DNA of 62,982 bases from an uncultured Bacteroidia bacterium (GCA_902790405.1 CADARW010000006.1:1-62982); one strand, 5' to 3'. Counted from the first letter of the stretch, positions 5,538 to 60,527 are shown. Program-made: numbers and translations. The notes: a model not told the origin generated them from the sequence alone.

Positions 5538-5909
5538 ATGGCACGAAGCGAAGAAATAAGCAACAACCTTAATATTATCGGTAGTGAAACCACTATCGTG
5601 GGTAATATTGTTTCGCAAGGCGATGTGAGGTTCGATGGAACATTAGAAGGAAATCTTACAACTCAGTCAAAACTGGTAATAGGCACTACCGGTAGGATTA
5701 CTGGGGAAATAAAATGTAGGGATTGTGAGGTTGCCGGTACAGTACGAGGCAAGATAAAAGTGGAAAACCTGCTGATGCTCAAAGCTACTGCAGTGGTCGA
5801 AGGGGAGATAAAAACCTCGAAGTTGGCCATCGAGCCCAATGCTGTATTCTCAGGCACATGCAGCATGAGTACCGCCGAACCGCAGGTCGAAGAACAGTAT
5901 AATGGATAG
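5538..5909 (+). CDS. bactofilin (polymer-forming cytoskeletal protein, CcmA family)
   Basis: 123 aa. The repeated hydrophobic-G-x-I/V beta-helix pattern (VGNIVSQGDVRFDGTLEGNL...ITGEIKCRDCEVAGTVRGKI...VEGEIKT) is the bactofilin signature. Confidence 0.85.
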   Translation: MARSEEISNNLNIIGSETTIVGNIVSQGDVRFDGTLEGNLTTQSKLVIGTTGRITGEIKCRDCEVAGTVRGKIKVENLLMLKATAVVEGEIKTSKLAIEPNAVFSGTCSMSTAEPQVEEQYNG

Positions 5910-6132
5910 CAAGGAAAAGAGCGACAAGTTCAATTCCGGTCTTGGTAAGTGGGCGCGATACACGTCGCTGGCCTTCGAGATGGGAATTGTGATTTTTGCC
6001 GGTGCTTTCGGCGGACTTAAGCTCGACGAGTATTTCGGTACCGAAAAGCCGTGGTTCACGGTGGCATTGTCGCTTTTTGCAGTTTTCGCATCTATATATA
6101 TAGTAGTAAAAGGTGTTAAGAATGAAAAATGA
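5902..6132 (+). CDS. AtpZ/AtpI family protein (putative F0F1-ATPase assembly subunit)
   Basis: 76 aa with two TM helices. The LAFEMGIVIFAGAFGG..LD pattern matches the ATPase_gene1 family. It overlaps the bactofilin stop by 8 nt. Confidence 0.65.
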   Translation: MDSKEKSDKFNSGLGKWARYTSLAFEMGIVIFAGAFGGLKLDEYFGTEKPWFTVALSLFAVFASIYIVVKGVKNEK

Positions 6133-6523
6133 TTCATTAGTCGGAGTATTGACAAAACTTGCAATTTTTGGCATCGGTCTGTTCGCCGTGCATTTTTTGC
6201 TTGCTCGCGCCTTCCCCGTTTGTGCCGCCGAAGGAATATACGAGGCACATCTTTTCCTTTTTGCGCTGACGGTGGCTGTCGTTCTAGTGCTGAAATTCAT
6301 TTTTCGGAAGATGACGCAGAAGCAAGGACTTTTCGGTTATGCCTTCATGGCGTCGAGCCTTGTGAAAATGGCGCTATGCGTGGTGTTCCTCATTCCTATA
6401 ATAAGAAGCGACGCCGACTATCGCATTGCATACGTCGTGCAGTTTTTTGTGCTGTATTTCGCATACCTCGTTATGGAAGTCGTGCTGGTCGCCAAGTTGC
6501 TGAAGACATCGCAGGAATCCTAA
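6122..6523 (+). CDS. hypothetical 4-TM membrane protein (DUF6168-like partner of AtpZ)
   Basis: The ATG at 6122 (MKNDSLVG) is preferred to the track's GTG at 6113. It overlaps the AtpZ stop by 11 nt and has four hydrophobic helices. Confidence 0.55.
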   Translation: MKNDSLVGVLTKLAIFGIGLFAVHFLLARAFPVCAAEGIYEAHLFLFALTVAVVLVLKFIFRKMTQKQGLFGYAFMASSLVKMALCVVFLIPIIRSDADYRIAYVVQFFVLYFAYLVMEVVLVAKLLKTSQES

Positions 6524-7016: not shown

Positions 7017-7328
7017 CTATGGCTTCGCCGTTTGAAAGTTTAGATGCCTGCGGCGTTTCTGTGGCTAAAGCCGTTTCACGCTGGCGCTGTTTCAATGGCT
7101 TCGCCGTTTCTGGGTTGGGGGCTTGCAGTCTTACAGTCTTACAGTCTTACAGTCTTTCAGCCTTTCGGCCTTTCAGTCTTTTAGCCTTTTAGCCCCATTT
7201 GCATCTTGTCAGCCAACCTAGAAACTTAGAAACTTAGAAACCTAGAAACCTTGAACCCTTGAAACGGCGCACCCATAGAACGGCGAAGCCCTCAACGAAG
7301 TTAACCTTTAGCTCAGCGTAAGCTAAAC
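7017..7328. repeat. GTTTC-phased mini-hairpin repeat array A (head-to-head, with central 8-bp microsatellites)
   Basis: Forward units (GGCTTCGCC/GCCTGCGGC/GGCTAAAGCC + GTTTC) span 7017-7115. 8-bp repeats CAGTCTTA-like x9 span 7126-7197. 8-bp repeats YTAGAAAC x6 span 7218-7265. Reverse-oriented units plus CTCAACGAAGTTAA span 7266-7304. An AACCTTTAGCTC hairpin lies at 7303-7328. Confidence 0.85.
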
Positions 7329-7386
7329 TTTTAAACAAATCTCTGTTTTTTCATAAAAATTTTGTTCATCCTAATTCATTATTTCT

Positions 7387-7394
7387 TACATTTG
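7387..7394 (+). promoter_or_regulatory. -7 box TAcaTTTG upstream of kbl
   Basis: Matches the Bacteroides TAnnTTTG consensus, 32 nt before the ATG at 7426. Confidence 0.45.
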
Positions 7395-7425
7395 CCAATC
7401 GAAAATAATTTAAAAACAAAATATC

Positions 7426-8616
7426 ATGTATAACGATTTTCAAGCTTATCTACAGAAGGAAATAGCTGGTATCAGAGAAGCCGGCTTGTACAAGAACGAA
7501 CGAATAATAGCATCGCCGCAGGGTGGTGAAATCACATTGCAGGACGGAACCAAGGTTCTCAATTTCTGCGCAAACAACTACCTCGGCCTCGCCAACAATC
7601 CACAGCTCATCGCTGCAGCAAAGGAAGCCATGGATACTCACGGCTACGGTATGGCATCGGTAAGGTTCATCTGCGGTTGCTCCGACCTTCACAAGGCATT
7701 GGAAAAGAAGATTGCTGAATTCTTTGGTACTGAGGACACTATCCTCTACGCTGCTTGCTTCGACGCTAACGGCGGTGTTTTCGAACCATTGCTAGGCGAA
7801 GACGATGCTATCATCTCCGACTCGTTGAACCACGCTTCAATTATCGACGGTGTTCGTCTGTGCAAGGCTCAGCGTTTCCGCTATGCAAACGCCGACATGG
7901 CCGACCTCGAAGAAAAACTCAAGGAAGCACAGAAGTGCCGTTTCCGCCTCATTGCTACCGACGGCGTATTCTCGATGGACGGTAACGTTTGCCCTCTCGA
8001 CAAGATTTACGAACTCGCAAACAAGTACAACGCAATGGTAATGGTTGACGAATCGCACTCGGCAGGCGTTGTCGGAAAGACTGGCCGCGGTGTTACCGAA
8101 CGCTACAACCTCCGTGGAAAGATTGAAATCCTTACCGGTACTCTCGGAAAGGCTTTCGGCGGTGCAGTAGGCGGATTCACAACTGGTAAGCGCGAAATCA
8201 TCGAAATGCTTCGTCAGCGTTCAAGACCATATTTGTTCTCCAACTCTATTCCGCCAATGGTTGCCGCTGCTGGCTGCAAGATGGTTGACATCATGTCGAG
8301 CACCAACGAGTTGCAGGACAAGCTTCACAGCAACACCGACTACTTCGTTGCAAAGATGAAGGCTGCTGGCTTCGACATCAAGCCAACCGAATCGGCAATC
8401 TGCGCAGTAATGCTCTACGACGCAAAGCTTTCGCAGGATATGGCTGCAAAACTTCAGGAAGAAGGCATCTATGTAACTGGCTTCTACTATCCTGTAGTTC
8501 CGAAGGGACAGGCTCGTATCCGCGTTCAGATTTCGGCAGCTCACGAAATCGCCCACCTCGACAAGTGCATCGCAGCATTTACCAAGGTCGGCAAGGAACT
8601 CGGCGTTATCAAGTAG
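7426..8616 (+). CDS. kbl: glycine C-acetyltransferase (2-amino-3-ketobutyrate CoA ligase)
   Basis: 396 aa. It starts LQKEIAGIREAGLYKNERII. The PLP-lysine context GTLGKAFGG and the alpha-oxoamine synthase layout are present. Confidence 0.93.
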   Translation: MYNDFQAYLQKEIAGIREAGLYKNERIIASPQGGEITLQDGTKVLNFCANNYLGLANNPQLIAAAKEAMDTHGYGMASVRFICGCSDLHKALEKKIAEFFGTEDTILYAACFDANGGVFEPLLGEDDAIISDSLNHASIIDGVRLCKAQRFRYANADMADLEEKLKEAQKCRFRLIATDGVFSMDGNVCPLDKIYELANKYNAMVMVDESHSAGVVGKTGRGVTERYNLRGKIEILTGTLGKAFGGAVGGFTTGKREIIEMLRQRSRPYLFSNSIPPMVAAAGCKMVDIMSSTNELQDKLHSNTDYFVAKMKAAGFDIKPTESAICAVMLYDAKLSQDMAAKLQEEGIYVTGFYYPVVPKGQARIRVQISAAHEIAHLDKCIAAFTKVGKELGVIK

Positions 8617-8638
8617 AAAAAAAACAAATTATAGAGGA

Positions 8639-8672
8639 AAAGTCGGGACGGAAGTTCCGACTTTTTTTGTTG
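8639..8672 (+). terminator. kbl intrinsic terminator (copy T1 of a duplicated terminator)
   Basis: AAAGTCGGGACGGAAGTTCCGACTTTTTTTGTTG. A near-identical copy lies at 11441-11475. Confidence 0.8.
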
Positions 8673-8940
8673 AGTGTTTACAGCACTTTTGGTGCTGCAC
8701 TAAAAGTGGAATTGAGATAAAATGCGGGATATAAAAATGTTATAGTTCATAGCAAAATAAATTTTGACACAATTTTTATATATCGCAAAAAAACAATAAC
8801 TTTGTGGGTAAATATGTAATATCTCCAAAACATAGGTATATGGACACAACTTTTTTATACCGGAAAATGGTAGATAAATCTGTTCTTTTTCAAGGATTTA
8901 CGATTCCTGTAAAATATCACCAATGTCCTTTCGGATTTAC

Positions 8941-8980
8941 AATCCGAAAGTCTTGAGTATCAGCATTTGTAATGCGCAGA
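8941..8980 (+). repeat. 40-bp direct repeat, left copy (DR1)
   Basis: AATCCGAAAGTCTTGAGTATCAGCATTTGTAATGCGCAGA is 37/40 identical to 11281-11320. Weaker similarity continues for about 12 nt. Confidence 0.85.
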
Positions 8981-9143
8981 TTAAGACAATTTACAGCAGT
9001 CGGCAATAGTTGGCTGCTGTTTTTGTTTCTGTGTGTAATAAATTTCTTCGCTCATGCTTTTTGTCTTGACAACAAAAGACTCCTCATCTTCAATCTGATA
9101 GGACAATATTTCGAAAAATTGTGCGCAGTTTCGGAAAAAGCAT

Positions 9144-9189
9144 TATCTTTGCAAACAGAAATATTGTTCGCAATTCGCGAACAGCGAAC
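9144..9189 (+). promoter_or_regulatory. -7 box TAtcTTTG (9144-9151) followed by an operator-like inverted repeat GTTCGC-AATTC-GCGAAC (9166-9182) and a third GCGAAC half-site (9184-9189)
   Basis: Read directly from the sequence. It lies 32-77 nt upstream of the wHTH gene ATG at 9221. Confidence 0.45.
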
Positions 9190-9220
9190 AAGTAAGATTA
9201 AGTATTTAATATACACACAA

Positions 9221-9736
9221 ATGAAACCACAAGATATTCTTGTCTTATTAAAAAAGATGACATCTGCAGGAAAGACATTGTCGTATCACGGGTTGGCAGA
9301 ATCGTTAGGGTTAAGTGCATCAACGGTGAGCGAAAGTTTGGAACGCTGCAAAAAGGCAAAACTTATCGACCGTGACAAAAAGCGAGTTAATGTACTGGCC
9401 TTGCAGGAATTTCTGATTCACGGCATTGCGTATGTCTTTCCCGTAGAGGCTGGGCGTGTCGGCAGAGGCATTCCAACCAATTCAAGCGCGTCGCCTATAA
9501 AGGAGAACATAACTGGTAGTTCCGAAATTTATGTATGGCATTATGTAAAAGGAACTTCACGCGGACAGCAAATCGAACCAATCTATCCTACTGTACCCGA
9601 AGCCGCCCTTCGCGACGACGAACTTTATCAGTTGCTGGTAATTGTTGATGCCTTGCGAATTGGACACAGCAGAGAGAAATCCGTTGCCATTGAAGAACTG
9701 ACCAAAAGATTGAACCGATATGCAGAAAACAAATAA
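9221..9736 (+). CDS. winged-helix DNA-binding protein, AbiEi-like putative antitoxin/regulator
   Basis: The track ORF 8972..9736 is trimmed to Met84 (MKPQDILVLLKKM), because the 83-aa upstream extension covers repeats and the promoter. HTH: LSYHGLAESLGLSASTVSESLERCKKAKLI. Its end overlaps the next gene by 17 nt. Confidence 0.6.
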   Translation: MKPQDILVLLKKMTSAGKTLSYHGLAESLGLSASTVSESLERCKKAKLIDRDKKRVNVLALQEFLIHGIAYVFPVEAGRVGRGIPTNSSASPIKENITGSSEIYVWHYVKGTSRGQQIEPIYPTVPEAALRDDELYQLLVIVDALRIGHSREKSVAIEELTKRLNRYAENK

Positions 9737-11201
9737 CGAACGCCTACAGGAAATTGCCGAGGCTTTGCAGGACTTGAACGACAGGCTTGTATATGTGGGC
9801 GGTGCTATGGCAGGTTCGTATGCTACAGACCCAACCGCAACAGAACCTCGTGTGACTTTTGATGTGGATTGTGTGGTAGATACTAAATCGTACAGCGAAC
9901 ACATAGACTTTGAAAATAAACTTCGTGCAAAACATTTTCAGAACGACCAAACGCCCGATGCTCCTCTTTGCCGATGGGTGTTCAACGGAGAAAAAGTGGA
10001 TGTAATGTCGATGGACGAAAAGAGTTTGTCGTTTGGTAATCGTTGGTATCGTCCAGGGTTCGAGAGACGCGAATTATGCACACTGCCTTCGGGAGAAAGC
10101 ATTTATCGCCTTTCTGTTACATACTATATTGCATCAAAAATTGAAGCATTGCTATCGCGTGGCGGTAACGACTGGCGAGGTGCAAAAGATTTCGAAGATA
10201 TTGTTTATGTACTCAATTATTGTTCCAATTTCATAGAACAATTTAAAAATGAAGATGCGCAGGTTCGCAATTATGTTTCGGATCAATTTTCGCAGATGTT
10301 AAAGCGTTCCAATATTTCAGAGGAAATAGAATCTGCAATATCATACGATGAAATTGAGCGCACCGATATGATTCTGGAAACACTGAAAGCCATTTCGGAA
10401 TACAACCTCCAATCATTAAGTATACAATTTGTCAGCGACTTGCATTTGGAATTTCCAGAAAACAGAGCATTTATTGCAAGTCATCCGTTGTTGGAAGTGT
10501 CGGGAGAAATCTTACTTGTTGCAGGAGATTCTGCATATCTTGACCATCCTGATTCTCGTCAGGACACATATTCGCATTATTCTTTCTGGGACTGGGCATC
10601 AAATAATTACAAGCAAGTAATTGTCTGCCTCGGGAATCATGATTTTTACGGCTACTACGACCTTGCCACAATGCCAGACGGCTATTGCAAGCAGATTCGC
10701 ACTAATGTTCACGCATATTATAATGCAGTTGTGCATCTTGGGGATACTGACATTATTGTTTCTACGCTATGGTCGCATATAAATCCGAATGATGCCTATA
10801 TTACAGAACGGAATGTCAGTGACTTCTATCGGATTATGTACAAAGGGCATCGCCTAAATGCAGAAAACTTTAATCAGGAACACGAACGATGCCTGCAATT
10901 TGTGAAAAAGGCAGTTGCAGAAAGTCGTGCAAAGACAAAAATTGTCCTTACCCACCATGTGCCGACTCAATTATGCACAGCAGATGAATTTCGTGGCAGT
11001 GCCATAAATGGTGCGTTTTCTGTTGAACTTGGCGATTATATTGCAGAGTCTGGCATTGACTTCTGGATTTACGGGCATTCGCATCGTAACATTGATGCCC
11101 AGATTGGCAATACGAAAATATTGTCCAACCAACTTGGGTATGTTTCACACGGAGAACATCGCTCCAATGGATTTAATCCGAAAAAGAAAATTGATTTGTG
11201 A
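9720..11201 (+). CDS. fusion protein: Pol-beta-superfamily nucleotidyltransferase (AbiEii/DUF1814-like) + calcineurin-like metallophosphoesterase
   Basis: 493 aa. The N-terminal half has VGGAMAGSYA...RVTFDVDCVV (G-G...R-x-T-x-D-x-D) and KIEALLSRG...GAKDFEDIVYVL. The C-terminal half has all five metallophosphoesterase motifs: SDLHLE, AGDSAY, GNHDFY, LTHHVP and YGHSHRN. Confidence 0.75.
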   Translation: MQKTNNERLQEIAEALQDLNDRLVYVGGAMAGSYATDPTATEPRVTFDVDCVVDTKSYSEHIDFENKLRAKHFQNDQTPDAPLCRWVFNGEKVDVMSMDEKSLSFGNRWYRPGFERRELCTLPSGESIYRLSVTYYIASKIEALLSRGGNDWRGAKDFEDIVYVLNYCSNFIEQFKNEDAQVRNYVSDQFSQMLKRSNISEEIESAISYDEIERTDMILETLKAISEYNLQSLSIQFVSDLHLEFPENRAFIASHPLLEVSGEILLVAGDSAYLDHPDSRQDTYSHYSFWDWASNNYKQVIVCLGNHDFYGYYDLATMPDGYCKQIRTNVHAYYNAVVHLGDTDIIVSTLWSHINPNDAYITERNVSDFYRIMYKGHRLNAENFNQEHERCLQFVKKAVAESRAKTKIVLTHHVPTQLCTADEFRGSAINGAFSVELGDYIAESGIDFWIYGHSHRNIDAQIGNTKILSNQLGYVSHGEHRSNGFNPKKKIDL

Positions 11202-11226
11202 TTCCAATGTTCTCTGTCCTATGGGC

Positions 11227-11280
11227 AACCTTTAGCTCACTGCCAAAGGCAGTAACCTTCAGCTCGTTGCCAATGGCAGC
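11227..11280 (+). repeat. 27-bp tandem repeat x2 (AACCTTNAGCTC + small hairpin)
   Basis: AACCTTTAGCTCACTGCCAAAGGCAGT (11227-11253) / AACCTTCAGCTCGTTGCCAATGGCAGC (11254-11280). The AACCTTTAGCTC word also occurs at 7303 and, reversed, at about 58541-58570. Confidence 0.8.
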
Positions 11281-11320
11281 AATCAGAAAGTCCTGAATAT
11301 CAGCATTTGTAATGCGCAGA
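11281..11320 (+). repeat. 40-bp direct repeat, right copy (DR2)
   Basis: AATCAGAAAGTCCTGAATATCAGCATTTGTAATGCGCAGA. See DR1 at 8941-8980. Confidence 0.85.
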
Positions 11321-11440
11321 CAAAACAATTTCACGCGTGCGGATTATAAATCCTTATATTCACATTGTCTGGATTGCAAATCCAGACAACCTTTATTACC
11401 GCTTGGTGCGGTGAACTAATGGTTATAAATTCATAATCCG

Positions 11441-11475
11441 AAAGTCGGGGCGAAAGTTCTGACTTTTTTTTGTTG
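11441..11475 (+). terminator. intrinsic terminator (copy T2 of the kbl terminator)
   Basis: AAAGTCGGGGCGAAAGTTCTGACTTTTTTTTGTTG differs from T1 by 3 substitutions and one extra T. Confidence 0.7.
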
Positions 11476-11556
11476 CATAACGTATTGTATTTTAATGTCT
11501 TAAAAAAATCTTTTCAAAAACTTTAAAAAATCTTGCAGTTTTCAAAAAAGAAAATG

Positions 11557-11564
11557 TAAATTTG
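11557..11564 (+). promoter_or_regulatory. -7 box TAaaTTTG upstream of atpB
   Basis: Consensus match about 31 nt before the ATG at 11595. Confidence 0.45.
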
Positions 11565-11594
11565 TGGTCTTACAATAAAATTCATAATTGGAAT

Positions 11595-12833
11595 ATGAAG
11601 AAATATGTTTGGTTTTTGTTAAGTCTTTGTGTATTGCTGACTTTCGCAATGCCAGTATGCGCTCAAGAGGCGGAAGCACAACCGCAGGACACAGCAAAAC
11701 AGATTGAGGAATCGGACGAAATTGCGCAAAATATTGCTGAACCGACAGATGATGCACAACCCGAAGCTGCAAAGGAAGAAAAGTTTGATGTCACAGGCCT
11801 TATTATGGGACATATCAAGGACTCGCACGTATGGCACATCCTCGACTACACCAAGGAAGAAAACGGTGTGGAAGTTGAAGTCCCAGTTGCTGTTCCTCTG
11901 CCAGTGATTGTCTTCGCAAACGGTCATCTCGACTTCTTCATGTCGGGCGCTTTCCACCACGGACACGAAGCCGTAACCAAGGGCGACAACACCTACATCC
12001 TCGCCAACGACAAGATTTACCTTGCCAACGACAAGGGCGGCCTTACTTTCCAGAACGGCGAAGCTACTGAGGCAATGGAATTCCACGAGAGTCTCGAATA
12101 CCTTGAGGCAAACGCCAACGCCGAAATCGCTAACGAAAAACCTCTTGATTTCTCGATTACAAAGAACGTAGCATCAATGATACTCGTTTCCATTATATTA
12201 TTAATAGTATTCATCAGCTTCGCAAAGGCTTACAAGAAGAACCCCGGCCGCCCGAAAGGCATGCAGGCTTTCCTCGAACCAGTTTTCCTATATGTAAGGG
12301 ACGATGTTATCTACCCCAACCTCGGCGAAAAGACCGACAAGTTCCTGCCATACCTTATGACAGTGTTCTTCTTCATACTTTTTAATAATATACTTGGCCT
12401 CATCCCGTTCTTCCCCGGCAATGCCAACGTAACGGGTAACATCGCAGTGACTATGGTTCTCGCCATCTTCACCTTCCTTATGATTAACTTGAACGGAAAC
12501 AAGGACTACTGGCACCACACTTTCTGGATGCCCGGTGTTCCGGTTTTCGTAAAGCCTATACTCGCAGTTGTTGAACTCATGGGTATCATCGTTAAGCCGG
12601 TTGCTCTTATGATTCGTCTTTTCGCCAACATTTCGGCAGGACATATCATCATCCTGAGCTTGGTATCGCTGATATTCATCTTCCAGACAATAGCAGTAGC
12701 TCCAGTGTCGGTAATATTCGTATTGTTCATGGACTGCCTCGAAATGCTTGTCGCATTCCTGCAGGCATACATATTCACGATGCTTTCGGCAGTGTTCATC
12801 AGTCTGGCAGTTGCAGAGCATAAGCACGAGTAG
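11595..12833 (+). CDS. atpB: F0F1 ATP synthase subunit a, with a Bacteroidota-type long N-terminal extension
   Basis: Trimmed to MKKYVWFLLSLCVLL (signal-like). The C-terminal half has the conserved LMIRLFANISAGHII arginine helix. Confidence 0.9.
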   Translation: MKKYVWFLLSLCVLLTFAMPVCAQEAEAQPQDTAKQIEESDEIAQNIAEPTDDAQPEAAKEEKFDVTGLIMGHIKDSHVWHILDYTKEENGVEVEVPVAVPLPVIVFANGHLDFFMSGAFHHGHEAVTKGDNTYILANDKIYLANDKGGLTFQNGEATEAMEFHESLEYLEANANAEIANEKPLDFSITKNVASMILVSIILLIVFISFAKAYKKNPGRPKGMQAFLEPVFLYVRDDVIYPNLGEKTDKFLPYLMTVFFFILFNNILGLIPFFPGNANVTGNIAVTMVLAIFTFLMINLNGNKDYWHHTFWMPGVPVFVKPILAVVELMGIIVKPVALMIRLFANISAGHIIILSLVSLIFIFQTIAVAPVSVIFVLFMDCLEMLVAFLQAYIFTMLSAVFISLAVAEHKHE

Positions 12834-37088: not shown

Positions 37089-37535
37089 TTAATTCGGAGT
37101 ACACTTAGGCCATTTCCTTATATGGATGGGGGTTAACTCATAATTTGCATCAAACCAATGATTATTGAGTTTAAACCATTTTGATTTGTGTTTTTTTCTA
37201 AAGCTAGCCAGTTTGTATATAGTATCGTTCATATCAACATATGATTCTATGTACTTATTTTTTGTTGTTTTAATATATGACCTATTATCTATTTTTACAG
37301 AATCAATATCTCCGTATTTATGATTTTTGTAATCATATTTGCTGTATATTTTATAAGCAACAATAGTTCCATTTTTTATGAAATACTTTCTATAAAAAGG
37401 GAACATTAATAAGTCTTCATCTATTATTCCGCCTGCTGATTGACTTTGACTCTGCGTTTCCACCTCTTGCCCCACCATCATGCAAGGCAAAAGCAACGCA
37501 ATTGCAAAAATGAATATTTTTAGTAGCCCCTTCAT
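37089..37535 (-). CDS. hypothetical secreted protein, A+T-rich, Lys/Tyr/Asn-rich
   Basis: Trimmed to the ATG at 37535 (MKGLLKIFIFAIALLLPCMMVGQ signal peptide), 13 nt downstream of the recN stop. Its composition visibly differs from the neighbouring genes. Confidence 0.55.
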   Translation of the reverse strand: MKGLLKIFIFAIALLLPCMMVGQEVETQSQSQSAGGIIDEDLLMFPFYRKYFIKNGTIVAYKIYSKYDYKNHKYGDIDSVKIDNRSYIKTTKNKYIESYVDMNDTIYKLASFRKKHKSKWFKLNNHWFDANYELTPIHIRKWPKCTPN

Positions 37536-37548
37536 ATCAAAACAATTG

Positions 37549-39207
37549 TCAATTCTTCCCCAGCAGCACCTTTGCATTTTCCAATGCCTCGGGCGTTAGT
37601 TTCTCGCCACTCATCATCGAGGCGATTTCGGTAATGCGCTCATCGGTGGAAAGCTTCTTGATGCTGGAAATTGTGCGCTGGTCGTCGGTATGCTTGTAAA
37701 CCTTGAAATGCTCGCTGCCCATCGCTGCAACCTGCGGAAGATGCGTAATGGAAAGGACTTGTACATTTTGGGCAATCTTTTGCATGATTTTGCCCATTTT
37801 TGCTGCAATTTCGCCCGAAACGCCAGTGTCAATCTCGTCGAAAAGTATGGTAGGAATATTCATCGAATTTGCCATAAGCGACTTCAGTGCAAGCATCAGA
37901 CGCGACAACTCACCTCCCGAAGCAACCTTCTCGATTGGTTCCACCGCTACCGCCTTGTTGGCACTGAAAAGGAAGGAAATATTGTCGATGCCGTTTGCCG
38001 AAACTTCCGTGATTTCGTTGCCAATCTCAAACACTCCGTGCGGCATTCCCAAGTCGTGAAGCATAGAGTTTATGTATTCCTGCGTCTTCTTGAACGAAGC
38101 CGAACGCTTCTTGCTTAGATTCTCGGCAGCGGCTTTCACTTCCTTCGCCTTGGCTGAATATTGCTTCTCGAGGTCGGCGATTTCGTCCTCAAGGTTTCCG
38201 CTGTTGTCAACATAGCCCCTGTACTCCTCGTACTTCTGCTTGAGTTCGGCTATGTCGGTAGCACGGTGCTTTGCCAATAGGCTCATCAGCAAGTCGATGC
38301 GCTCGTTGGTAAGTTGCAATTGCTGCGGGTTTACTTCCACCTGCGACAACTGCTGCGAAATTGTATCGTTGATGTCGGAAAGTTCTATTATAGAGGATTC
38401 AAGACGCTGTTCAAGTTCCTGTGCCGGCTTGTAGTTCTTGCCGATTTTTGCAAGGTTGCTACGCATCTGTTTCAGCAAGGCGGAAGCAGAATATTCGCCA
38501 CCATCGTACAGGTTGGTAGTCTCGTACAAGGTCGATTTTATTTCCTCGGCATTTTCGAGCATCGAGGCGCGAGCTTCAAGTTCTTCAAGCTCATCGTCGG
38601 ACGAAAGTTTTGCATTTTCAATCTCCAATGCCTGATACCTATAATAATCTAAGTCCTTCTGAGCATTTGCTAGCGCGTCTTTCTTGCTTTTTAGTAATTG
38701 CGCAATCGACTGGTATTCAGCATATTTCTGCTTGTATTCCTCGAAAAGTGCCAATGTTCCTGCCGCTGAATCGACAATGCGCAAACGGTAGGGCAGGGTA
38801 GTGAGCGAAAGGTTTTCGTGCTGTGAGTGCAAGTCGAGAAAATTGTCGGTAAGAGCCTTTAGTACAGCCAATGTTACCGGCATATCGTTCACGAAAGCCC
38901 TCGACTTGCCTTCGGGCATAATTTCGCGCCTAACAATTGTTTGGTCGGAATAGTCAACCTCGTTTTCGGCAAACAAGTCTTTCAATCCGAGGTTTTTAAT
39001 GTCGAAAGTGGCTTCTATGACACATTTCTTGTCCTTAAAGAGAAGCACGTCGGTGTCGGCGCGTTTGCCCAGAAGTAGCGAAATTGCAGCTATAATCATT
39101 GATTTGCCCGAACCAGTCTCGCCAGTAATAACGGAAAAACCCGAATTGAAGTCAATGTCGAGTTTTTCAATTAGAATATAATTTCTGACTGAAAGGTTCC
39201 TAATCAT
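37549..39207 (-). CDS. recN: DNA repair protein RecN
   Basis: 552 aa. Walker A GETGSGKS, long coiled coil, signature ASGGELSRLMLALK, Walker B ILFDEIDTG. Confidence 0.93.
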   Translation of the reverse strand: MIRNLSVRNYILIEKLDIDFNSGFSVITGETGSGKSMIIAAISLLLGKRADTDVLLFKDKKCVIEATFDIKNLGLKDLFAENEVDYSDQTIVRREIMPEGKSRAFVNDMPVTLAVLKALTDNFLDLHSQHENLSLTTLPYRLRIVDSAAGTLALFEEYKQKYAEYQSIAQLLKSKKDALANAQKDLDYYRYQALEIENAKLSSDDELEELEARASMLENAEEIKSTLYETTNLYDGGEYSASALLKQMRSNLAKIGKNYKPAQELEQRLESSIIELSDINDTISQQLSQVEVNPQQLQLTNERIDLLMSLLAKHRATDIAELKQKYEEYRGYVDNSGNLEDEIADLEKQYSAKAKEVKAAAENLSKKRSASFKKTQEYINSMLHDLGMPHGVFEIGNEITEVSANGIDNISFLFSANKAVAVEPIEKVASGGELSRLMLALKSLMANSMNIPTILFDEIDTGVSGEIAAKMGKIMQKIAQNVQVLSITHLPQVAAMGSEHFKVYKHTDDQRTISSIKKLSTDERITEIASMMSGEKLTPEALENAKVLLGKN

Positions 39208-46131: not shown

Positions 46132-46614
46132 TTATTTCCTTATTATTGGAGCCTCGTAAAGGTTCAGTTCTTTCACGACTGTGTTGTAGTCTGATTCCCT
46201 GAGTTCTTCAACCGACTTCGAAACAACTGCGATATTCGGAATCTTAATAATTCTGTATTTCTTCGAGAAATTATTTGCCCATGTATAGCCATCTCCTGCA
46301 TCAGCAGTGAATGCAAATATACCATTATCGGTATATGCATACTCGTATGATTCTGTGCCGTTGAGCAATGGGAGTGGCATCCACATCTCTTCTCCAGATG
46401 AATTGCCAATGTAAATGTACGCGATAATAGCATCTCTAGAGCTGAAATATGAACTGAGCTCGTTTGTGGCTTTTGTTGCGAGCTGATTGCCTGCTGCATT
46501 ATCAAAGGTAATGGTGATTTCGTGAATACTGCTTTGAGTAACCGTTTTTGTACATCCTGAAGCAAATACCAATGCAATCATAACGCCAATAACAAAAAAT
46601 AAACTTCTTTTCAT
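46132..46614 (-). CDS. hypothetical lipoprotein
   Basis: Trimmed to the ATG at 46614 (MKRSLFFVIGVMIALVFASGC lipobox). No recognisable family. Confidence 0.6.
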   Translation of the reverse strand: MKRSLFFVIGVMIALVFASGCTKTVTQSSIHEITITFDNAAGNQLATKATNELSSYFSSRDAIIAYIYIGNSSGEEMWMPLPLLNGTESYEYAYTDNGIFAFTADAGDGYTWANNFSKKYRIIKIPNIAVVSKSVEELRESDYNTVVKELNLYEAPIIRK

Positions 46615-46793
46615 TTTACATTGTGCCGAGTTATATACCATGCGGCCCCGTCGGTTTTAGATTAATAATTTTTTTGACGGAGCAAATGTGGCTTATTTGC
46701 ATGAATGTAATGTGGAGCTTGTAAACAGATGCTTCAAAAACGATATCTGATACTAGTATTTTGTAATTTGCAATTTAACGGGTATGTAAAATG

Positions 46794-58900: not shown

Positions 58901-59135
58901 GGGTTCAACGATTCGATGCTGAGCTGTGCTGTGGATTTTATATCTACCGAATGTTTTTAGGTATCATTGTCCTTTTATTTGTTCCAATGTGCAATAAATT
59001 GCCCATATTATCAGCATGTTGAAAAATAAAAATTCAAAAAAAAGTTTGCATGTATTGAAAACTTTATTAAACTTGCAGTTCGAATTAATTTCAAAAAAGA
59101 AAAGCAAACTTATTATTAATTTAAATTTAAATGTT

Positions 59136-60527
59136 ATGAAGAAATTTTACATGATTTTGGCTGCCTTATTAATAGGTAGTGTGTGCTTTGCACAGAAAAC
59201 TGTGACATTGACAGAAAAGACATTGCCTTCACAAAGCAATCAAACAAGAGAAACAGGTTGGTATGGAGAATCTGTACTAGCATCTTATCAAGACCTGACA
59301 GCAGGGGGATACTTTATTATCAGACCTGAAACCTATCAAGGTGCAACAACGTCTGGAGAACAAGTTGAAAAAATCAAATTTTATGTTGTTAGTCCATCTT
59401 TGTTACAAGGTGATGACGCAACCACTTATGCTTCATACACAAACCTCAGTTTTACTATTAAGATTTATGAAGGGTCTGCTATGAATGCTGATTTATTGGA
59501 TATAGATGCTGGATATACCGAAGATAATGATGCAGTACTTGGCACATTGGTGCGCACTATTCCATATACTGCTACTCAAGCTGGTGAACAGGTTGTTGAA
59601 TTGTCAGAACCTTATACAATTGGCTCCTCTAATTATTGGATAACTTTGGAAAGTAACGGAAATTCTCTGATTGGTGTTAACTACACACAAATCTCAAATA
59701 CTGTTACTCCTGAAGAATATCAAGGTGGCACTGAACCAGAATATACTATATCTGATTATAGCGGAGCTCATTATCTATTGTATGAAGTTGATCAATATCT
59801 TGACATTGACGTTCCTCTGGCTTTGCTTTATACAGATGATACACATAACGCAATTGCATACTTTTTCACTAATGCATATTTTCAGATATATGTACAGGGT
59901 GCAGGTGAATTCGTTCCGAATTCAGACGTCGCAGCTGTCTTCGCAGATGCAAATCCTCCCACAGGTTTAGCTCCTACAAGTATGACTTTGGACTTAAATG
60001 ATAATTTGGTATTGTATCCATTTGTAATGAATATGGGACCAGATGCAACTGATGGTACAATTACAGCTTCAATAACAATAGATGATGAAGTTATAGCTTC
60101 TTTGCCAATAACTCAATCCGTGCCATCTCAAAATGGTTTAGCACTTACTCAGCAGGGTCAGAACTCATTTACAATACCAGCAGCAAATTTGCCAACAACA
60201 AATTTCAATGTATGTTTAGTTGTAGAATATTCAGGTGCTGGTGATAATGCAAATAACAACACAACATGCATTGCTGTAACAAGACCGACCACAGTTGAAG
60301 AAAACGTAGCAGAAGCAGTTTCTGTATATCCTAACCCAGCAAACGACATGTTCACCGTTGCTAACGCAGAAGGTGCTACTATCGTAGTTGTTAACTCGCT
60401 CGGTCAGGTTGTTGCTACTATCGAAAATGCAGCTTCGAACCAAACTATCGACGCTAGCAACTTCGCAAACGGAACCTACTTCGTAAAGGTTAACGAAGAA
60501 GTTGTAAGAATCAACGTTGTAAAGTAA
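59136..60527 (+). CDS. T9SS-secreted hypothetical protein (463 aa)
   Basis: Trimmed to the ATG at 59136 (MKKFYMILAALLIGSVCFAQ). The C-terminal VSVYPNPANDMFTV...GTYFVKV...INVVK is a type-A T9SS CTD. The passenger region has no recognisable family. Confidence 0.8.
   Translation: MKKFYMILAALLIGSVCFAQKTVTLTEKTLPSQSNQTRETGWYGESVLASYQDLTAGGYFIIRPETYQGATTSGEQVEKIKFYVVSPSLLQGDDATTYASYTNLSFTIKIYEGSAMNADLLDIDAGYTEDNDAVLGTLVRTIPYTATQAGEQVVELSEPYTIGSSNYWITLESNGNSLIGVNYTQISNTVTPEEYQGGTEPEYTISDYSGAHYLLYEVDQYLDIDVPLALLYTDDTHNAIAYFFTNAYFQIYVQGAGEFVPNSDVAAVFADANPPTGLAPTSMTLDLNDNLVLYPFVMNMGPDATDGTITASITIDDEVIASLPITQSVPSQNGLALTQQGQNSFTIPAANLPTTNFNVCLVVEYSGAGDNANNNTTCIAVTRPTTVEENVAEAVSVYPNPANDMFTVANAEGATIVVVNSLGQVVATIENAASNQTIDASNFANGTYFVKVNEEVVRINVVK

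What the first reader, a model, noticed from the sequence alone, without database searches (positions are those of the whole stretch)
8639..11475. 2.8-kb two-gene cassette between kbl and the atp operon, bracketed by a duplicated terminator and a nested 40-bp direct repeat
The kbl terminator AAAGTCGGGACGGAAGTTCCGACTTTTTTTGTTG (8639-8672) recurs as AAAGTCGGGGCGAAAGTTCTGACTTTTTTTTGTTG (11441-11475), with 3 substitutions and one extra T. All other terminators in the window are unrelated in sequence. Inside that pair, AATCCGAAAGTCTTGAGTATCAGCATTTGTAATGCGCAGA (8941-8980) and AATCAGAAAGTCCTGAATATCAGCATTTGTAATGCGCAGA (11281-11320) are 37/40 identical and bracket just the two genes. All four copies share GAAAGTC, and the 12 nt preceding T2 (AATCCGAAAGTC, 11436-11447) equal the start of DR1. 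By eye the enclosed DNA is more A+T-rich, with different Leu/Ser codon choice than kbl or atpB; this was not computed. No integrase or transposase is enclosed. This looks like a non-autonomous insertion or a recombination-delivered defence islet.
Basis: partly seen in the sequence, partly recalled or inferred. Interest (0 to 1): 0.7.

Follow-up and report, generated by a model that had tools for sequence, protein, structure and literature searches.

The report
Defence-cassette hotspot between kbl and atp
The 2.8-kb segment is one of at least ten alternative gene sets that strains of an uncultured rumen Bacteroidales bacterium carry in the same slot in front of the ATP-synthase operon. This strain's set is a toxin-antitoxin-like candidate phage-defence pair whose toxin is fused to a phosphoesterase.

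Summary
Both repeat pairs sit at the stated coordinates and occur nowhere else in the 63-kb window. Related metagenome contigs and MAGs (kbl 93-100% nt identity) show three states. Empty: kbl, one terminator, atpB (L018, L116). Cargo-less scaffold with one copy of the 40-mer between two terminator copies (L117). Occupied, with at least ten different cargo configurations. No integrase or transposase was found in any allele. The repeats belong to the slot's frame, not to this cassette: the same left and right frames bracket other cargo. The 40-mer is the left arm of a 110-145-nt palindromic element that also occurs alone in another genome. The swappable unit is about 9048/9135-11201. It holds a promoter, a conserved operator, a wHTH gene and an overlapping gene for an AbiEii/MenT-like nucleotidyltransferase fused to an intact metallophosphoesterase. 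The pair matches PADLOC's untested candidate PDC-M21 (models A and B). It sits between unrelated housekeeping genes in other Bacteroidales. Best reading: an AbiE/MenAT-like toxin-antitoxin defence candidate in a recombination-driven hotspot. Function and delivery mechanism are inferred, not shown.

The parts
7426..8616 (+). kbl (2-amino-3-ketobutyrate CoA ligase-like aminotransferase), left anchor of the hotspot
   Evidence: PF00155, E 2.5e-68. The identical protein is found on contigs with different downstream cargo.
8627..8672 (+). T1: kbl terminator hairpin plus about 12 nt of left flank; outer direct repeat, copy 1
   Evidence: It folds with z -5.1. Empty sites L018 and L116 keep a single copy.
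8680..8709 (+). B: near-perfect palindrome right after T1. B-like copies bracket the ATPase_2 cassette in other alleles.
8797..8804 (+). TAACTTTG, a match to the Bacteroidetes -7 promoter box TAnnTTTG, pointing into DR1. Function is speculative.
   Evidence: Read from the sequence. The consensus is from my own knowledge. Not tested.
8824..8957 (+). 134-nt stretch absent from alleles L001 and L117. It carries hairpin 1 (8928-8950) and the left 17 nt of DR1.
   Evidence: BLAST map; hairpin variants.
8940..8992 (+). DR1: inner direct repeat, copy 1 (left arm of the palindromic element, truncated copy)
8993..9030 (+). E: 12-bp-stem intrinsic terminator after DR1. The DR1-E junction is shared by alleles with other cargo (L001, L007, L118, L119, L121).
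9144..9190 (+). Cassette promoter and operator: -7 box TATCTTTG (9144-9151), then palindrome plus third half-site TGTTCGCAATTCGCGAACAGCGAACA (9165-9190)
   Evidence: This is the only non-coding stretch conserved with the same gene pair at other loci in other genomes.
9221..9736 (+). wHTH protein, 171 aa; putative autorepressor and antitoxin
   Evidence: PADLOC PDC-M21A, E 1.2e-45. MarR/ArsR-type wHTH at aa 5-60. The family has 2363 cluster representatives of about 170 aa.
9720..11201 (+). 493-aa fusion: AbiEii/MenT-like nucleotidyltransferase (aa 1-232) plus metallophosphoesterase (aa 233-493). It overlaps the wHTH gene by 17 nt.
   Evidence: PDC-M21B, E 4.4e-49. PF00149, E 2.7e-12. PF08843, E 8.9e-4, with 21/43 relatives matching. 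AlphaFold pLDDT 94.8; Foldseek top hit MenT1, E 1e-5.
11227..11279 (+). G: 27-nt unit x2 tandem repeat, lying inside the split loop of hairpin 1 of the right-hand element
11280..11331 (+). DR2: inner direct repeat, copy 2 (left arm of the complete palindromic element)
11338..11390 (+). Right arm of the palindromic element, with hairpins GGATTATAAATCC and TTGTCTGGATTGCAAATCCAGACAA
   Evidence: GGATTNNNAATCC occurs 3 times in the window, all in these elements, with 0.07 expected.
11427..11475 (+). T2: outer direct repeat, copy 2; terminator hairpin in front of the atpB promoter
11484..12833 (+). atpB promoter region (conserved in every allele from 11484 on) and atpB (11595-12833); right anchor

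Best explanation
The kbl-atpB intergenic region of this uncultured rumen Bacteroidales lineage is a strain-variable cassette hotspot. Shown: the population holds an empty state (kbl-T-atpB), a cargo-less scaffold (T1-B-C-one palindromic element-T2) and many occupied states. The window is an occupied state in which the scaffold's palindromic element is duplicated (DR1, DR2) around a 2.2-kb cassette. Inferred: cassettes are gained by homologous recombination in the conserved flanks and frame (kbl, T, DR-E on the left; G-DR-T2-atp on the right). They are lost by recombination or slippage between the direct repeats, without a dedicated recombinase in cis. The cassette is a self-contained operon. 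A promoter with a conserved palindromic operator is presumably repressed by the wHTH protein. The wHTH gene overlaps a gene for an AbiEii/MenT-type nucleotidyltransferase that keeps the catalytic G-G, T46-x-D48-x-D50, K140 and D157 residues. That enzyme is fused to a metallophosphoesterase with all five metal-binding motifs. By analogy with AbiE and MenAT, I infer this mechanism. The transferase is a growth-arresting toxin that adds nucleotides to tRNA 3' ends. The wHTH protein is its antitoxin and autorepressor. The pair gives abortive-infection-type phage defence or addiction. The role of the fused phosphoesterase is open.
For: Three states. Empty: L018 (kbl 97.2% nt identical to the window) and L116. 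Scaffold-only: L117. Occupied with at least ten configurations: MNT-HEPN with ATPase_2; trypsin-TPR protease; ATPase_2 with zinc-ribbon gene arrays; DUF2683-YoeB; methyltransferase-NACHT-TIR; AAA_14/DUF4143; CsgG.

Other cargos also hit PADLOC candidates: PDC-S09 8e-17, PDC-S27 2e-196, PDC-S01 3e-164.

The same frames bracket different cargo.

Deletions end in short repeats. L004 and L008 lack 11253-11450, with GAAAGT at both ends. L118 lacks exactly the toxin gene (9719-11433) and keeps the wHTH gene.

No recombinase was found in any allele.

The same gene pair, at 70-76% identity, sits between BipA|FecCD, MacB|MacB and SufD|polyprenyl synthase in other Bacteroidales. There it has no flanking repeats, and only the promoter/operator is conserved outside the genes.

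Function: PADLOC PDC-M21A and B. AbiEii Pfam hits in 21/43 relatives. Profile hit to MenT1 8an4, aligning T46 with the phosphoacceptor T39. Foldseek top hit MenT1, E 1e-5. MenT and AbiEii biochemistry comes from PMC11375011, PMC10435456 and bioRxiv 10.64898/2026.01.19.700257.
Against: Direction (gain versus loss) cannot be set, because species with 90% Kbl do not have kbl next to atpB, so there is no outgroup.

The cassette is as diverged between strains as its flanks (96.7% against 97.5%), so nothing shows recent transfer.

The origin of the duplicated T and DR is unexplained by simple flank recombination.

PDC-M21 is an untested candidate. Its source table defines it as a three-family cassette, only two of its models matched here, and a two-family cassette made of two of its families was rejected there.

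The wHTH protein matches no AbiEi family. The window NTase itself is below Pfam's AbiEii cut-off (19.7 against 22.5 bits).

A 66%-identical stand-alone NTase has no wHTH partner upstream, which does not fit an obligate toxin-antitoxin pair.

All alleles come from metagenome assemblies.
Confidence: 0.7

Rival explanations
1. Remnant of site-specific integration. T1 and T2 would be the attL and attR of an element that integrated into the kbl terminator through a tyrosine integrase. That integrase is now lost or acts in trans (a cis-mobilisable element), and later cassettes were added by tandem accretion.
For: The repeat covers the 3' end of the target. In L118 and L020 an 85-87-nt repeat (94% and 82%) includes the last 30-34 nt of kbl plus T and brackets an ATPase_2 cassette. 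At least two independent insertions duplicated T. The empty site reads exactly like attB.
Against: No integrase was found in about 20 alleles or in the searched parts of the window. Each cassette has its own repeat, of different sequence and length: T 46-87 nt, B 62-68, DR 39-53, E 27, and a 158-nt gene remnant. That does not fit one att core. T and DR have no match in IMG/VR viral contigs.
Confidence: 0.2
2. The repeats are functional RNA or regulatory modules (a small RNA with its terminator, or transcriptional insulators between cassettes and the atp promoter). They would be kept by selection, and their bracketing of the cassette would be incidental.
For: The copies are strongly structured: L099 z -8.9, DR1-E z -5.6, 11330-11475 z -5.4. 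Hairpin 1 keeps pairing through two double changes between copies. A solitary copy ends in a terminator with no upstream gene on that strand. A TAnnTTTG box lies upstream.
Against: There is no Rfam match. Only a handful of distinct copies exist, so covariation is thin. There are no expression data. This reading does not explain the presence/absence polymorphisms. It is compatible with the main explanation rather than exclusive of it.
Confidence: 0.3
3. The two genes are not a toxin-antitoxin or defence pair. They would be a transcription factor and a nucleotide- or phosphoester-processing enzyme with a housekeeping or stress role, and they merely sit in a variable region.
For: No experiment exists for this family. 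PDC-M21 is untested. Stand-alone NTase homologues lack a partner. The structural neighbours of the phosphoesterase are generic: purple acid phosphatase, PptH, Dbr1, Rv0805.
Against: The gene pair is strictly coupled by a 17-nt overlap at four further loci. The pair appears sporadically between unrelated housekeeping genes. The neighbouring alternatives are defence or TA-like. The L118 allele lost the enzyme but kept the wHTH gene. The enzyme has the MenT1 fold and catalytic residues.
Confidence: 0.2
4. Purely local origin: tandem duplication and unequal crossing-over of intergenic DNA, with the cargo inherited vertically and never transferred.
For: The cassette and its flanks are equally diverged between strains. 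Codon-usage distance is unremarkable.
Against: Ten or more unrelated cargo sets occupy the same slot in strains with identical Kbl. The same pair is found at other loci in other genomes. GC3 is 0.38-0.42 against 0.57-0.58 in the flanking genes.
Confidence: 0.05

Closest known systems
Core defence hotspots between conserved genes (P. aeruginosa cDHS1/2, PMC10250203; E. coli integration hotspots, PMC10121019)
   Same: A fixed slot between core genes that is empty in some strains and holds diverse defence systems in others. Some cases have no identifiable means of mobilisation. Transfer by recombination in the conserved flanks has been proposed.
   Different: This one is in an uncultured rumen Bacteroidales and is very small (0 to more than 8 kb). 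It sits directly on the atp operon promoter. It has a repeat-bearing non-coding frame, with solo states of both repeat pairs present in the population.
AbiE (AbiEi/AbiEii) and MenAT (MenA/MenT) DUF1814 nucleotidyltransferase toxin-antitoxin systems
   Same: A two-gene overlapping operon. The upstream protein has a wHTH and a palindromic operator. The downstream protein has the MenT1-like fold with the G-G, T-x-D-x-D, K and D residues.
   Different: The upstream protein matches no AbiEi family and is only 171 aa. The NTase is below Pfam's AbiEii cut-off. It carries a C-terminal 260-aa metallophosphoesterase. I found no paper describing that fusion for this toxin family.
PADLOC phage defence candidate PDC-M21 (Payne et al., bioRxiv 10.1101/2024.01.29.577857)
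   Same: Both proteins match its A and B models strongly (1.2e-45, 4.4e-49).
   Different: The source table lists PDC-M21 as three families, and no third gene is present here. The phosphoesterase domain matches only PDC-S10, and weakly. The candidate itself is untested.
Palindromic intergenic repeat elements of the ERIC / Correia / RUP type (own knowledge, not tested against them)
   Same: A 110-145-nt imperfect palindrome in intergenic DNA. It contains terminator-like hairpins and occurs in more than one genomic context.
   Different: Only a few copies were seen: two in 63 kb, and one solitary copy elsewhere. No target-site duplication or transposase link was found. There is no sequence relation to those families.
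Integron cassette arrays and clusters of attC sites lacking an integrase (own knowledge)
   Same: Promoter-proximal array of small gene cassettes separated by structured palindromic sites.
   Different: No integrase was found. The junction elements differ in sequence (T, B, DR-E). The cassettes carry their own promoters. The repeats are direct duplications of local sequence, not attC-like sites.

Membership tests
AbiE / MenAT (DUF1814 NTase toxin-antitoxin) | Toxin belongs to the AbiEii/DUF1814 family (PF08843) | tested here: inconclusive
   The window domain scores E 8.9e-4, 19.7 bits, below the 22.5-bit cut-off. 21 of 43 relatives match, best 1.7e-9. The family profile hits MenT1 8an4 at 1.1e-3. 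Foldseek top hit is MenT1, E 1e-5, TM 0.48-0.59.
AbiE / MenAT (DUF1814 NTase toxin-antitoxin) | Catalytic NTase residues and the phosphoacceptor are conserved (MenT1 T39, D41, K137, D152) | tested here: met
   G27, G28, D48, D50, K140 and D157 are invariant and T46 is at least 90% conserved in 43 relatives. T46-F-D48 aligns with MenT1 T39-R-D41. Residue roles are from PMC11375011.
AbiE / MenAT (DUF1814 NTase toxin-antitoxin) | Cognate antitoxin of the AbiEi/MenA type encoded immediately upstream | tested here: not met
   An upstream overlapping wHTH gene is present. However, neither the window protein (E up to 0.1) nor any of 40 relatives (E up to 0.01) hit an AbiEi Pfam family, and the family profile does not hit AbiEi 6Y8Q. 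The architecture is analogous (wHTH plus a C-terminal domain), but homology is not shown.
AbiE / MenAT (DUF1814 NTase toxin-antitoxin) | Toxicity, neutralisation by the partner, and tRNA 3' nucleotidylation | not testable with these tools
   This needs expression and biochemistry. The only indirect hint is allele L118, which keeps the wHTH gene and lacks the enzyme.
PADLOC PDC-M21 | All component families present and adjacent | tested here: not met
   Models A and B match. The source lists three families. There is no third gene, and the fused domain hits only PDC-S10.
Metallophosphoesterase (calcineurin-like, PF00149) | Five metal-binding motifs: DxH, GD, GNH[DE], H, GHxH | tested here: met
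   PF00149, E 2.7e-12. D240-L-H242, G269-D270, G305-N-H-D308, H412-H413 and G452-H-S-H455 are read from the sequence and are invariant or nearly so in 45 homologues.
Integrase-borne integrative element (att-flanked island) | Direct repeats that reproduce the target's 3' end at both ends of the insert | tested here: met
   T repeat of 46-49 nt here; 85-87 nt including the kbl 3' end in L020 and L118.
Integrase-borne integrative element (att-flanked island) | A site-specific recombinase within or next to the element | tested here: not met
   None in the window interval. None in any allele's called genes. None among the odd-composition ORFs of the window.
Core defence hotspot | Same flanking core genes, with empty and variably occupied states, and cargo enriched in defence genes | tested here: met
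   Most cargo is 'candidate' rather than validated defence.
MITE-like palindromic repeat | Many dispersed copies with terminal inverted repeats and target-site duplications | tested here: inconclusive
   A long hairpin and a solitary copy in another genome are seen. But there are only 3 exact 22-mer hits in the JGI metagenome collection, of which one is this locus and one is chance. There are no other copies in about 1.5 Mb of related loci. A whole genome of the lineage was not available.
Integron | intI integrase, attI, and attC sites after each cassette | tested here: not met
   No integrase was found. The junction elements are heterogeneous.

The most novel reading that the evidence does not exclude
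The fused metallophosphoesterase may be a built-in phosphatase for the toxin's own regulatory phosphate. MenT and AbiEii toxins are switched off by antitoxin-induced auto-phosphorylation of an active-site Thr or Ser, and cellular Ser/Thr phosphatases can reverse this in vitro. Here the equivalent Thr (T46) is conserved and a phosphoesterase with all five metal-binding motifs is covalently attached. The Bacteroidales family (at least 351 cluster representatives with E <= 1e-5; all 120 listed cover at least 97% of the query) would then be a self-resetting or trigger-activated toxin. In that case the natural fusion points to the missing reactivation step of type VII NTase toxin-antitoxin systems.
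Probability: 0.2. Interest if true: 0.75.

Novelty: new variant of a known kind. Interest (0 to 1): 0.5.

Why it matters
The empty, scaffold-only and occupied states of one small intergenic hotspot can all be read at base resolution in natural populations of an uncultured rumen bacterium. This makes it a clean case for asking how recombinase-less defence cassettes are gained and lost. Separately, the cargo is a widespread Bacteroidales fusion of a MenT/AbiEii-type toxin with a phosphoesterase, and I found no description of it. A 2026 preprint states that the in-vivo role of phosphatases in reactivating these auto-phosphorylated toxins is unexplored. A natural toxin-phosphoesterase fusion is a direct handle on that question. 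If the pair proves to be neither toxic nor protective, the finding reduces to an ordinary accessory-gene polymorphism.

Tried and rejected
- **tRNA-derived att site.** The hairpins look like anticodon arms, but ARAGORN finds no tRNA or tmRNA near the interval.
- **Known RNA family.** There are no Rfam hits at gathering thresholds, and only noise at E up to 10.
- **Phage or prophage origin.** The repeats have no match in IMG/VR. Only the phosphoesterase domain has relatives there, at 55% identity on three viral contigs.
- **High-copy dispersed repeat.** Not supported.
- **Reading DR as the 5' end of a minus-strand gene.** The ORF at 11173-11334 is only 53 aa, and no longer ORF is seen in the DR regions read in other alleles (window, L001). 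Dropped.
- **Gene fission test.** Metallophos genes lie near stand-alone NTase homologues in L122 and L125, but they are unrelated to the fused domain beyond the motifs (E 0.006 and 0.099).
- **Direct sequence search of PDB** with either protein gave nothing useful.
- **Substrate of the phosphoesterase from structure.** The neighbours are generic.
- **Integrase elsewhere in the window.** None among the odd-composition ORFs tested.
- **Longer 254-aa start for the wHTH gene (8972).** Rejected. Homologues are about 170 aa and align from residue 1, and homology with other loci begins at 9135.


Full report
**1. Observation.**
T1 (8639-8672) and T2 (11441-11475) differ by three substitutions and one T. 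DR1 (8941-8980) and DR2 (11281-11320) are 37/40 identical. Neither pair is a chance match or a dispersed motif of the window. The T 30-mer finds only these two sites at up to 3 mismatches, with none in shuffles. The DR 22-mer core also finds only two sites, with 0.01 expected. The repeats are longer than reported: about 46-49 nt for T and 53 nt for DR. AATCCGAAAGTC is at 11435-11446 and overlaps T2. The enclosed DNA is modestly A+T-rich. GC3 is 0.38-0.42, against 0.58 in kbl, 0.57 in atpB and a window mean of 0.52 +/- 0.09. It is not a codon-usage outlier.

**2. Genes.**
The flanks are kbl (7426-8616) and atpB (11595-12833). The interval holds two overlapping genes.
- The first (9221-9736, 171 aa) has a MarR/ArsR-type winged helix at its N-terminus and a conserved C-terminal part with no Pfam family. 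It matches PADLOC model PDC-M21A at 1.2e-45. It belongs to a large family of about 170-aa proteins (2363 cluster representatives).
- The second (9720-11201, 493 aa) is a fusion.
  - Residues 3-228 match PDC-M21B at 4.4e-49.
  - Residues 235-456 match the calcineurin-like phosphoesterase family at 2.7e-12. All five metal-binding motifs are conserved.
  - The N-domain is a distant member of the AbiEii/MenT (DUF1814) nucleotidyltransferases. It scores just below Pfam's cut-off, but 21 of 43 relatives match PF08843.
  - A profile of the family hits MenT1 (8an4) and aligns T46-x-D48 with MenT1's T39-x-D41.
  - A confident AlphaFold model (pLDDT 94.8) has MenT1 as its best Foldseek match (E 1e-5).
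- PDC systems are 145 untested candidates predicted by 'guilt by embedding'. The source table lists PDC-M21 as a three-family cassette, and a two-family cassette built from two of its families was rejected there. Membership is therefore partial.

**3. Comparative evidence: three states.**
Contigs that encode exactly the same Kbl or AtpE, together with species-representative MAGs, come from rumen and gut metagenomes of ruminants. They are labelled uncultured Bacteroidales.
- *State 0, empty.* In L018 and L116, kbl is followed by one terminator and the atpB promoter (175-176 nt). The left flank is that of T1 and the right flank is that of T2. L018's kbl is 97.2% identical to the window's, as close as occupied strains.
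- *State 1, scaffold only.* In L117 the interval is 489 nt: T1, palindrome B, an A+T-rich stretch, a single copy of the DR element, then T2.
- *State 2, occupied.* The window-type cassette occurs in several samples. At least ten other configurations exist:
  - MNT-HEPN with an ATPase_2 gene;
  - a trypsin-TPR protein;
  - ATPase_2 with arrays of zinc-ribbon genes;
  - DUF2683-YoeB;
  - a methyltransferase with a 1310-aa NACHT NTPase and a TIR protein;
  - AAA_14/DUF4143;
  - CsgG.

Several of these hit PADLOC candidates: PDC-S09, PDC-S27 and PDC-S01. Thus each of the two nested repeat pairs corresponds to a real presence/absence polymorphism. Species with about 90% Kbl do not have kbl next to atpB. 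There is therefore no outgroup to tell gain from loss.

**4. What the repeats are.**
They belong to the slot, not to this cassette.
- The DR2-(160 nt)-T2 module lies in front of atpB in alleles with unrelated cargo (window, L001, L006, L010, L112, L119, L121). DR1 plus terminator E precedes different cassettes in L001, L007, L118, L119 and L121.
- Against L001, homology ends at about 9047 and resumes at 11225.
- Against the same gene pair at other loci, homology starts at 9135. The exchangeable unit is therefore about 9048/9135-11201.
- DR is the left arm of a composite palindromic element of 110-145 nt. A solitary copy in an unrelated contig (L099) folds into one long hairpin (z -8.9) and ends in a T-run.
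- Its sub-hairpins all have the form GGATT-NNN-AATCC. That motif occurs three times in the window, all in these elements, with 0.07 expected.
- Hairpin 1 keeps pairing through two double changes between copies.
- DR1 is a truncated copy and DR2 is part of a complete one.

Other cassettes are also bracketed by direct repeats, but by different ones:
- 62-68 nt of B around ATPase_2;
- 85-87 nt comprising the last 30-34 nt of kbl plus T around ATPase_2 in L020 and L118;
- 27 nt of E around the YoeB pair;
- a 158-nt gene remnant in L001.

Deletions end in short repeats. L004 and L008 lack 11253-11450, with GAAAGT at both ends. No integrase or transposase was seen in any allele. The repeats are absent from viral contigs.

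**5. The cassette elsewhere.**
Full-length homologues of the fusion are common in gut and rumen Bacteroidales. There are 351 cluster representatives, and the 120 listed are 68-99% identical. In three other genomes the pair lies between unrelated housekeeping genes: BipA|FecCD, MacB|MacB and SufD|polyprenyl synthase. In each it keeps the same 17-nt overlap and has no flanking repeats and no recombinase. The only conserved non-coding sequence has two parts. One is a TAnnTTTG-type -7 box. The other is the strictly conserved operator TGTTCGCnnTTCGCGAACAnCGAACA (9165-9190). Allele L118 keeps the wHTH gene but has lost exactly the enzyme gene. This is the decay pattern expected if the enzyme is the harmful partner. 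Against an obligate pair, a 66%-identical stand-alone NTase has no wHTH gene upstream.

**6. Mechanism.**
- *Shown:* the polymorphic states, the frames, the domain composition and the conserved catalytic residues.
- *Inferred from family knowledge:* MenT toxins add nucleotides to tRNA 3' ends and block aminoacylation (PMC7450476, PMC10435456). MenT1, MenT3 and AbiEii are neutralised by antitoxin-induced auto-phosphorylation of an active-site Thr or Ser (PMC11375011; bioRxiv 10.64898/2026.01.19.700257). This can be reversed in vitro by Ser/Thr phosphatases, whose in-vivo role is stated to be unexplored.
- *My proposal:* the wHTH protein represses the operon at the operator and neutralises the transferase. 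Release of the transferase arrests translation, giving abortive infection or addiction.
- *The fused phosphoesterase* could remove the inhibitory phosphate from T46, which is the novel reading (probability about 0.2). Alternatively it could process RNA ends or nucleotides. Its structural neighbours (purple acid phosphatase, PptH, Dbr1, Rv0805) do not decide this. I found no paper linking AbiEii with a metallophosphoesterase fusion.
- *Delivery:* the simplest account is homologous exchange through the 93-98% identical flanks and frame, with loss through the direct repeats. This is what has been proposed for recombinase-less core defence hotspots. It does not explain how T and DR first became duplicated. 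A single-crossover integration of a circle carrying one copy, or an integrase acting in trans, remains possible (rival 1).

**7. Verdict.**
The finding is a new variant of known kinds: a core-gene-flanked defence hotspot carrying an AbiE/MenAT-like candidate with an undescribed phosphoesterase fusion. Interest is moderate (0.5). The hotspot itself would not surprise a specialist. What gives it value is the base-resolved three-state series and the fusion's bearing on toxin reactivation.

Noticed in passing
L018:2040-2066 (empty site) against window 8639-8668: The loop of the kbl terminator hairpin is inverted in L018 (GGGACTTTCGCCCC against GGGGCGAAAGTCCC in L003), while the stem is unchanged. 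The other empty site, L116, has the window's T1 version. This looks like a hairpin-loop flip.
   Followed up: partly
window 7019-7400; L003, L005, L006, L007, L118: The junction upstream of kbl also varies. Contigs with identical Kbl have either dksA or an MMPL transporter upstream, with homology breaking near 7261-7360. The region holds 8-nt tandem repeats: CTTTCAGT x8.5 at 7122-7189 and AACCTAGA x6.4 at 7215-7265.
   Followed up: partly
L021 and L120 (MAG RUG13712); L112: An inversion of the transketolase-to-kbl segment puts transketolase next to atpB. In L112 a T copy with a T2-type flank follows transketolase. This suggests that the palindromic T is also an inversion breakpoint.
   Followed up: no
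window 5900-6523 and 11595 onward: AtpZ/AtpI-like genes (PF09527 and a 133-136-aa membrane protein) lie upstream of dksA-kbl. So dksA, kbl and the hotspot separate them from atpB in this lineage.
   Followed up: no
L118:5770-6562: This allele keeps DR1, E, the promoter and the wHTH gene up to window position 9718. It has lost the NTase-phosphoesterase gene (window 9719-11433) and is joined directly to T.
   Followed up: yes
L003:11267-16796; L112, L119, L121: Arrays of four to six paralogous double-zinc-ribbon (DZR) genes with 77-88% identical 5' ends occupy the hotspot in several strains. Their function is unknown.
   Followed up: no
L109, L110, L111 (IMG/VR contigs): Stand-alone homologues of the phosphoesterase domain (55% identity to aa 223-493) are encoded on viral contigs. 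The domain also matches phrog_1649.
   Followed up: no
window 11227-11279; L001:12776-12826: A 27-nt unit repeated twice, made of two small palindromes (CTGCCAAAGGCAG and TGCCAATGGCA), sits inside the loop of hairpin 1 of the right-hand palindromic element. An inverted partial copy lies after the HEPN gene in L001 (10678-10726).
   Followed up: partly
window 37089-37577, 46132-46641, 59016-60527: These three ORFs have clearly lower GC and GC3 than the rest of the window (GC3 0.32, 0.38 and 0.26). The last is a Por_Secre_tail (T9SS-sorted) protein. The other two have no Pfam match.
   Followed up: partly
L122:926-4687: A stand-alone 228-aa homologue of the NTase domain (66% identity) has no wHTH partner. 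It lies next to KAP NTPase and AAA_14/DUF4143 genes in another rumen contig.
   Followed up: partly
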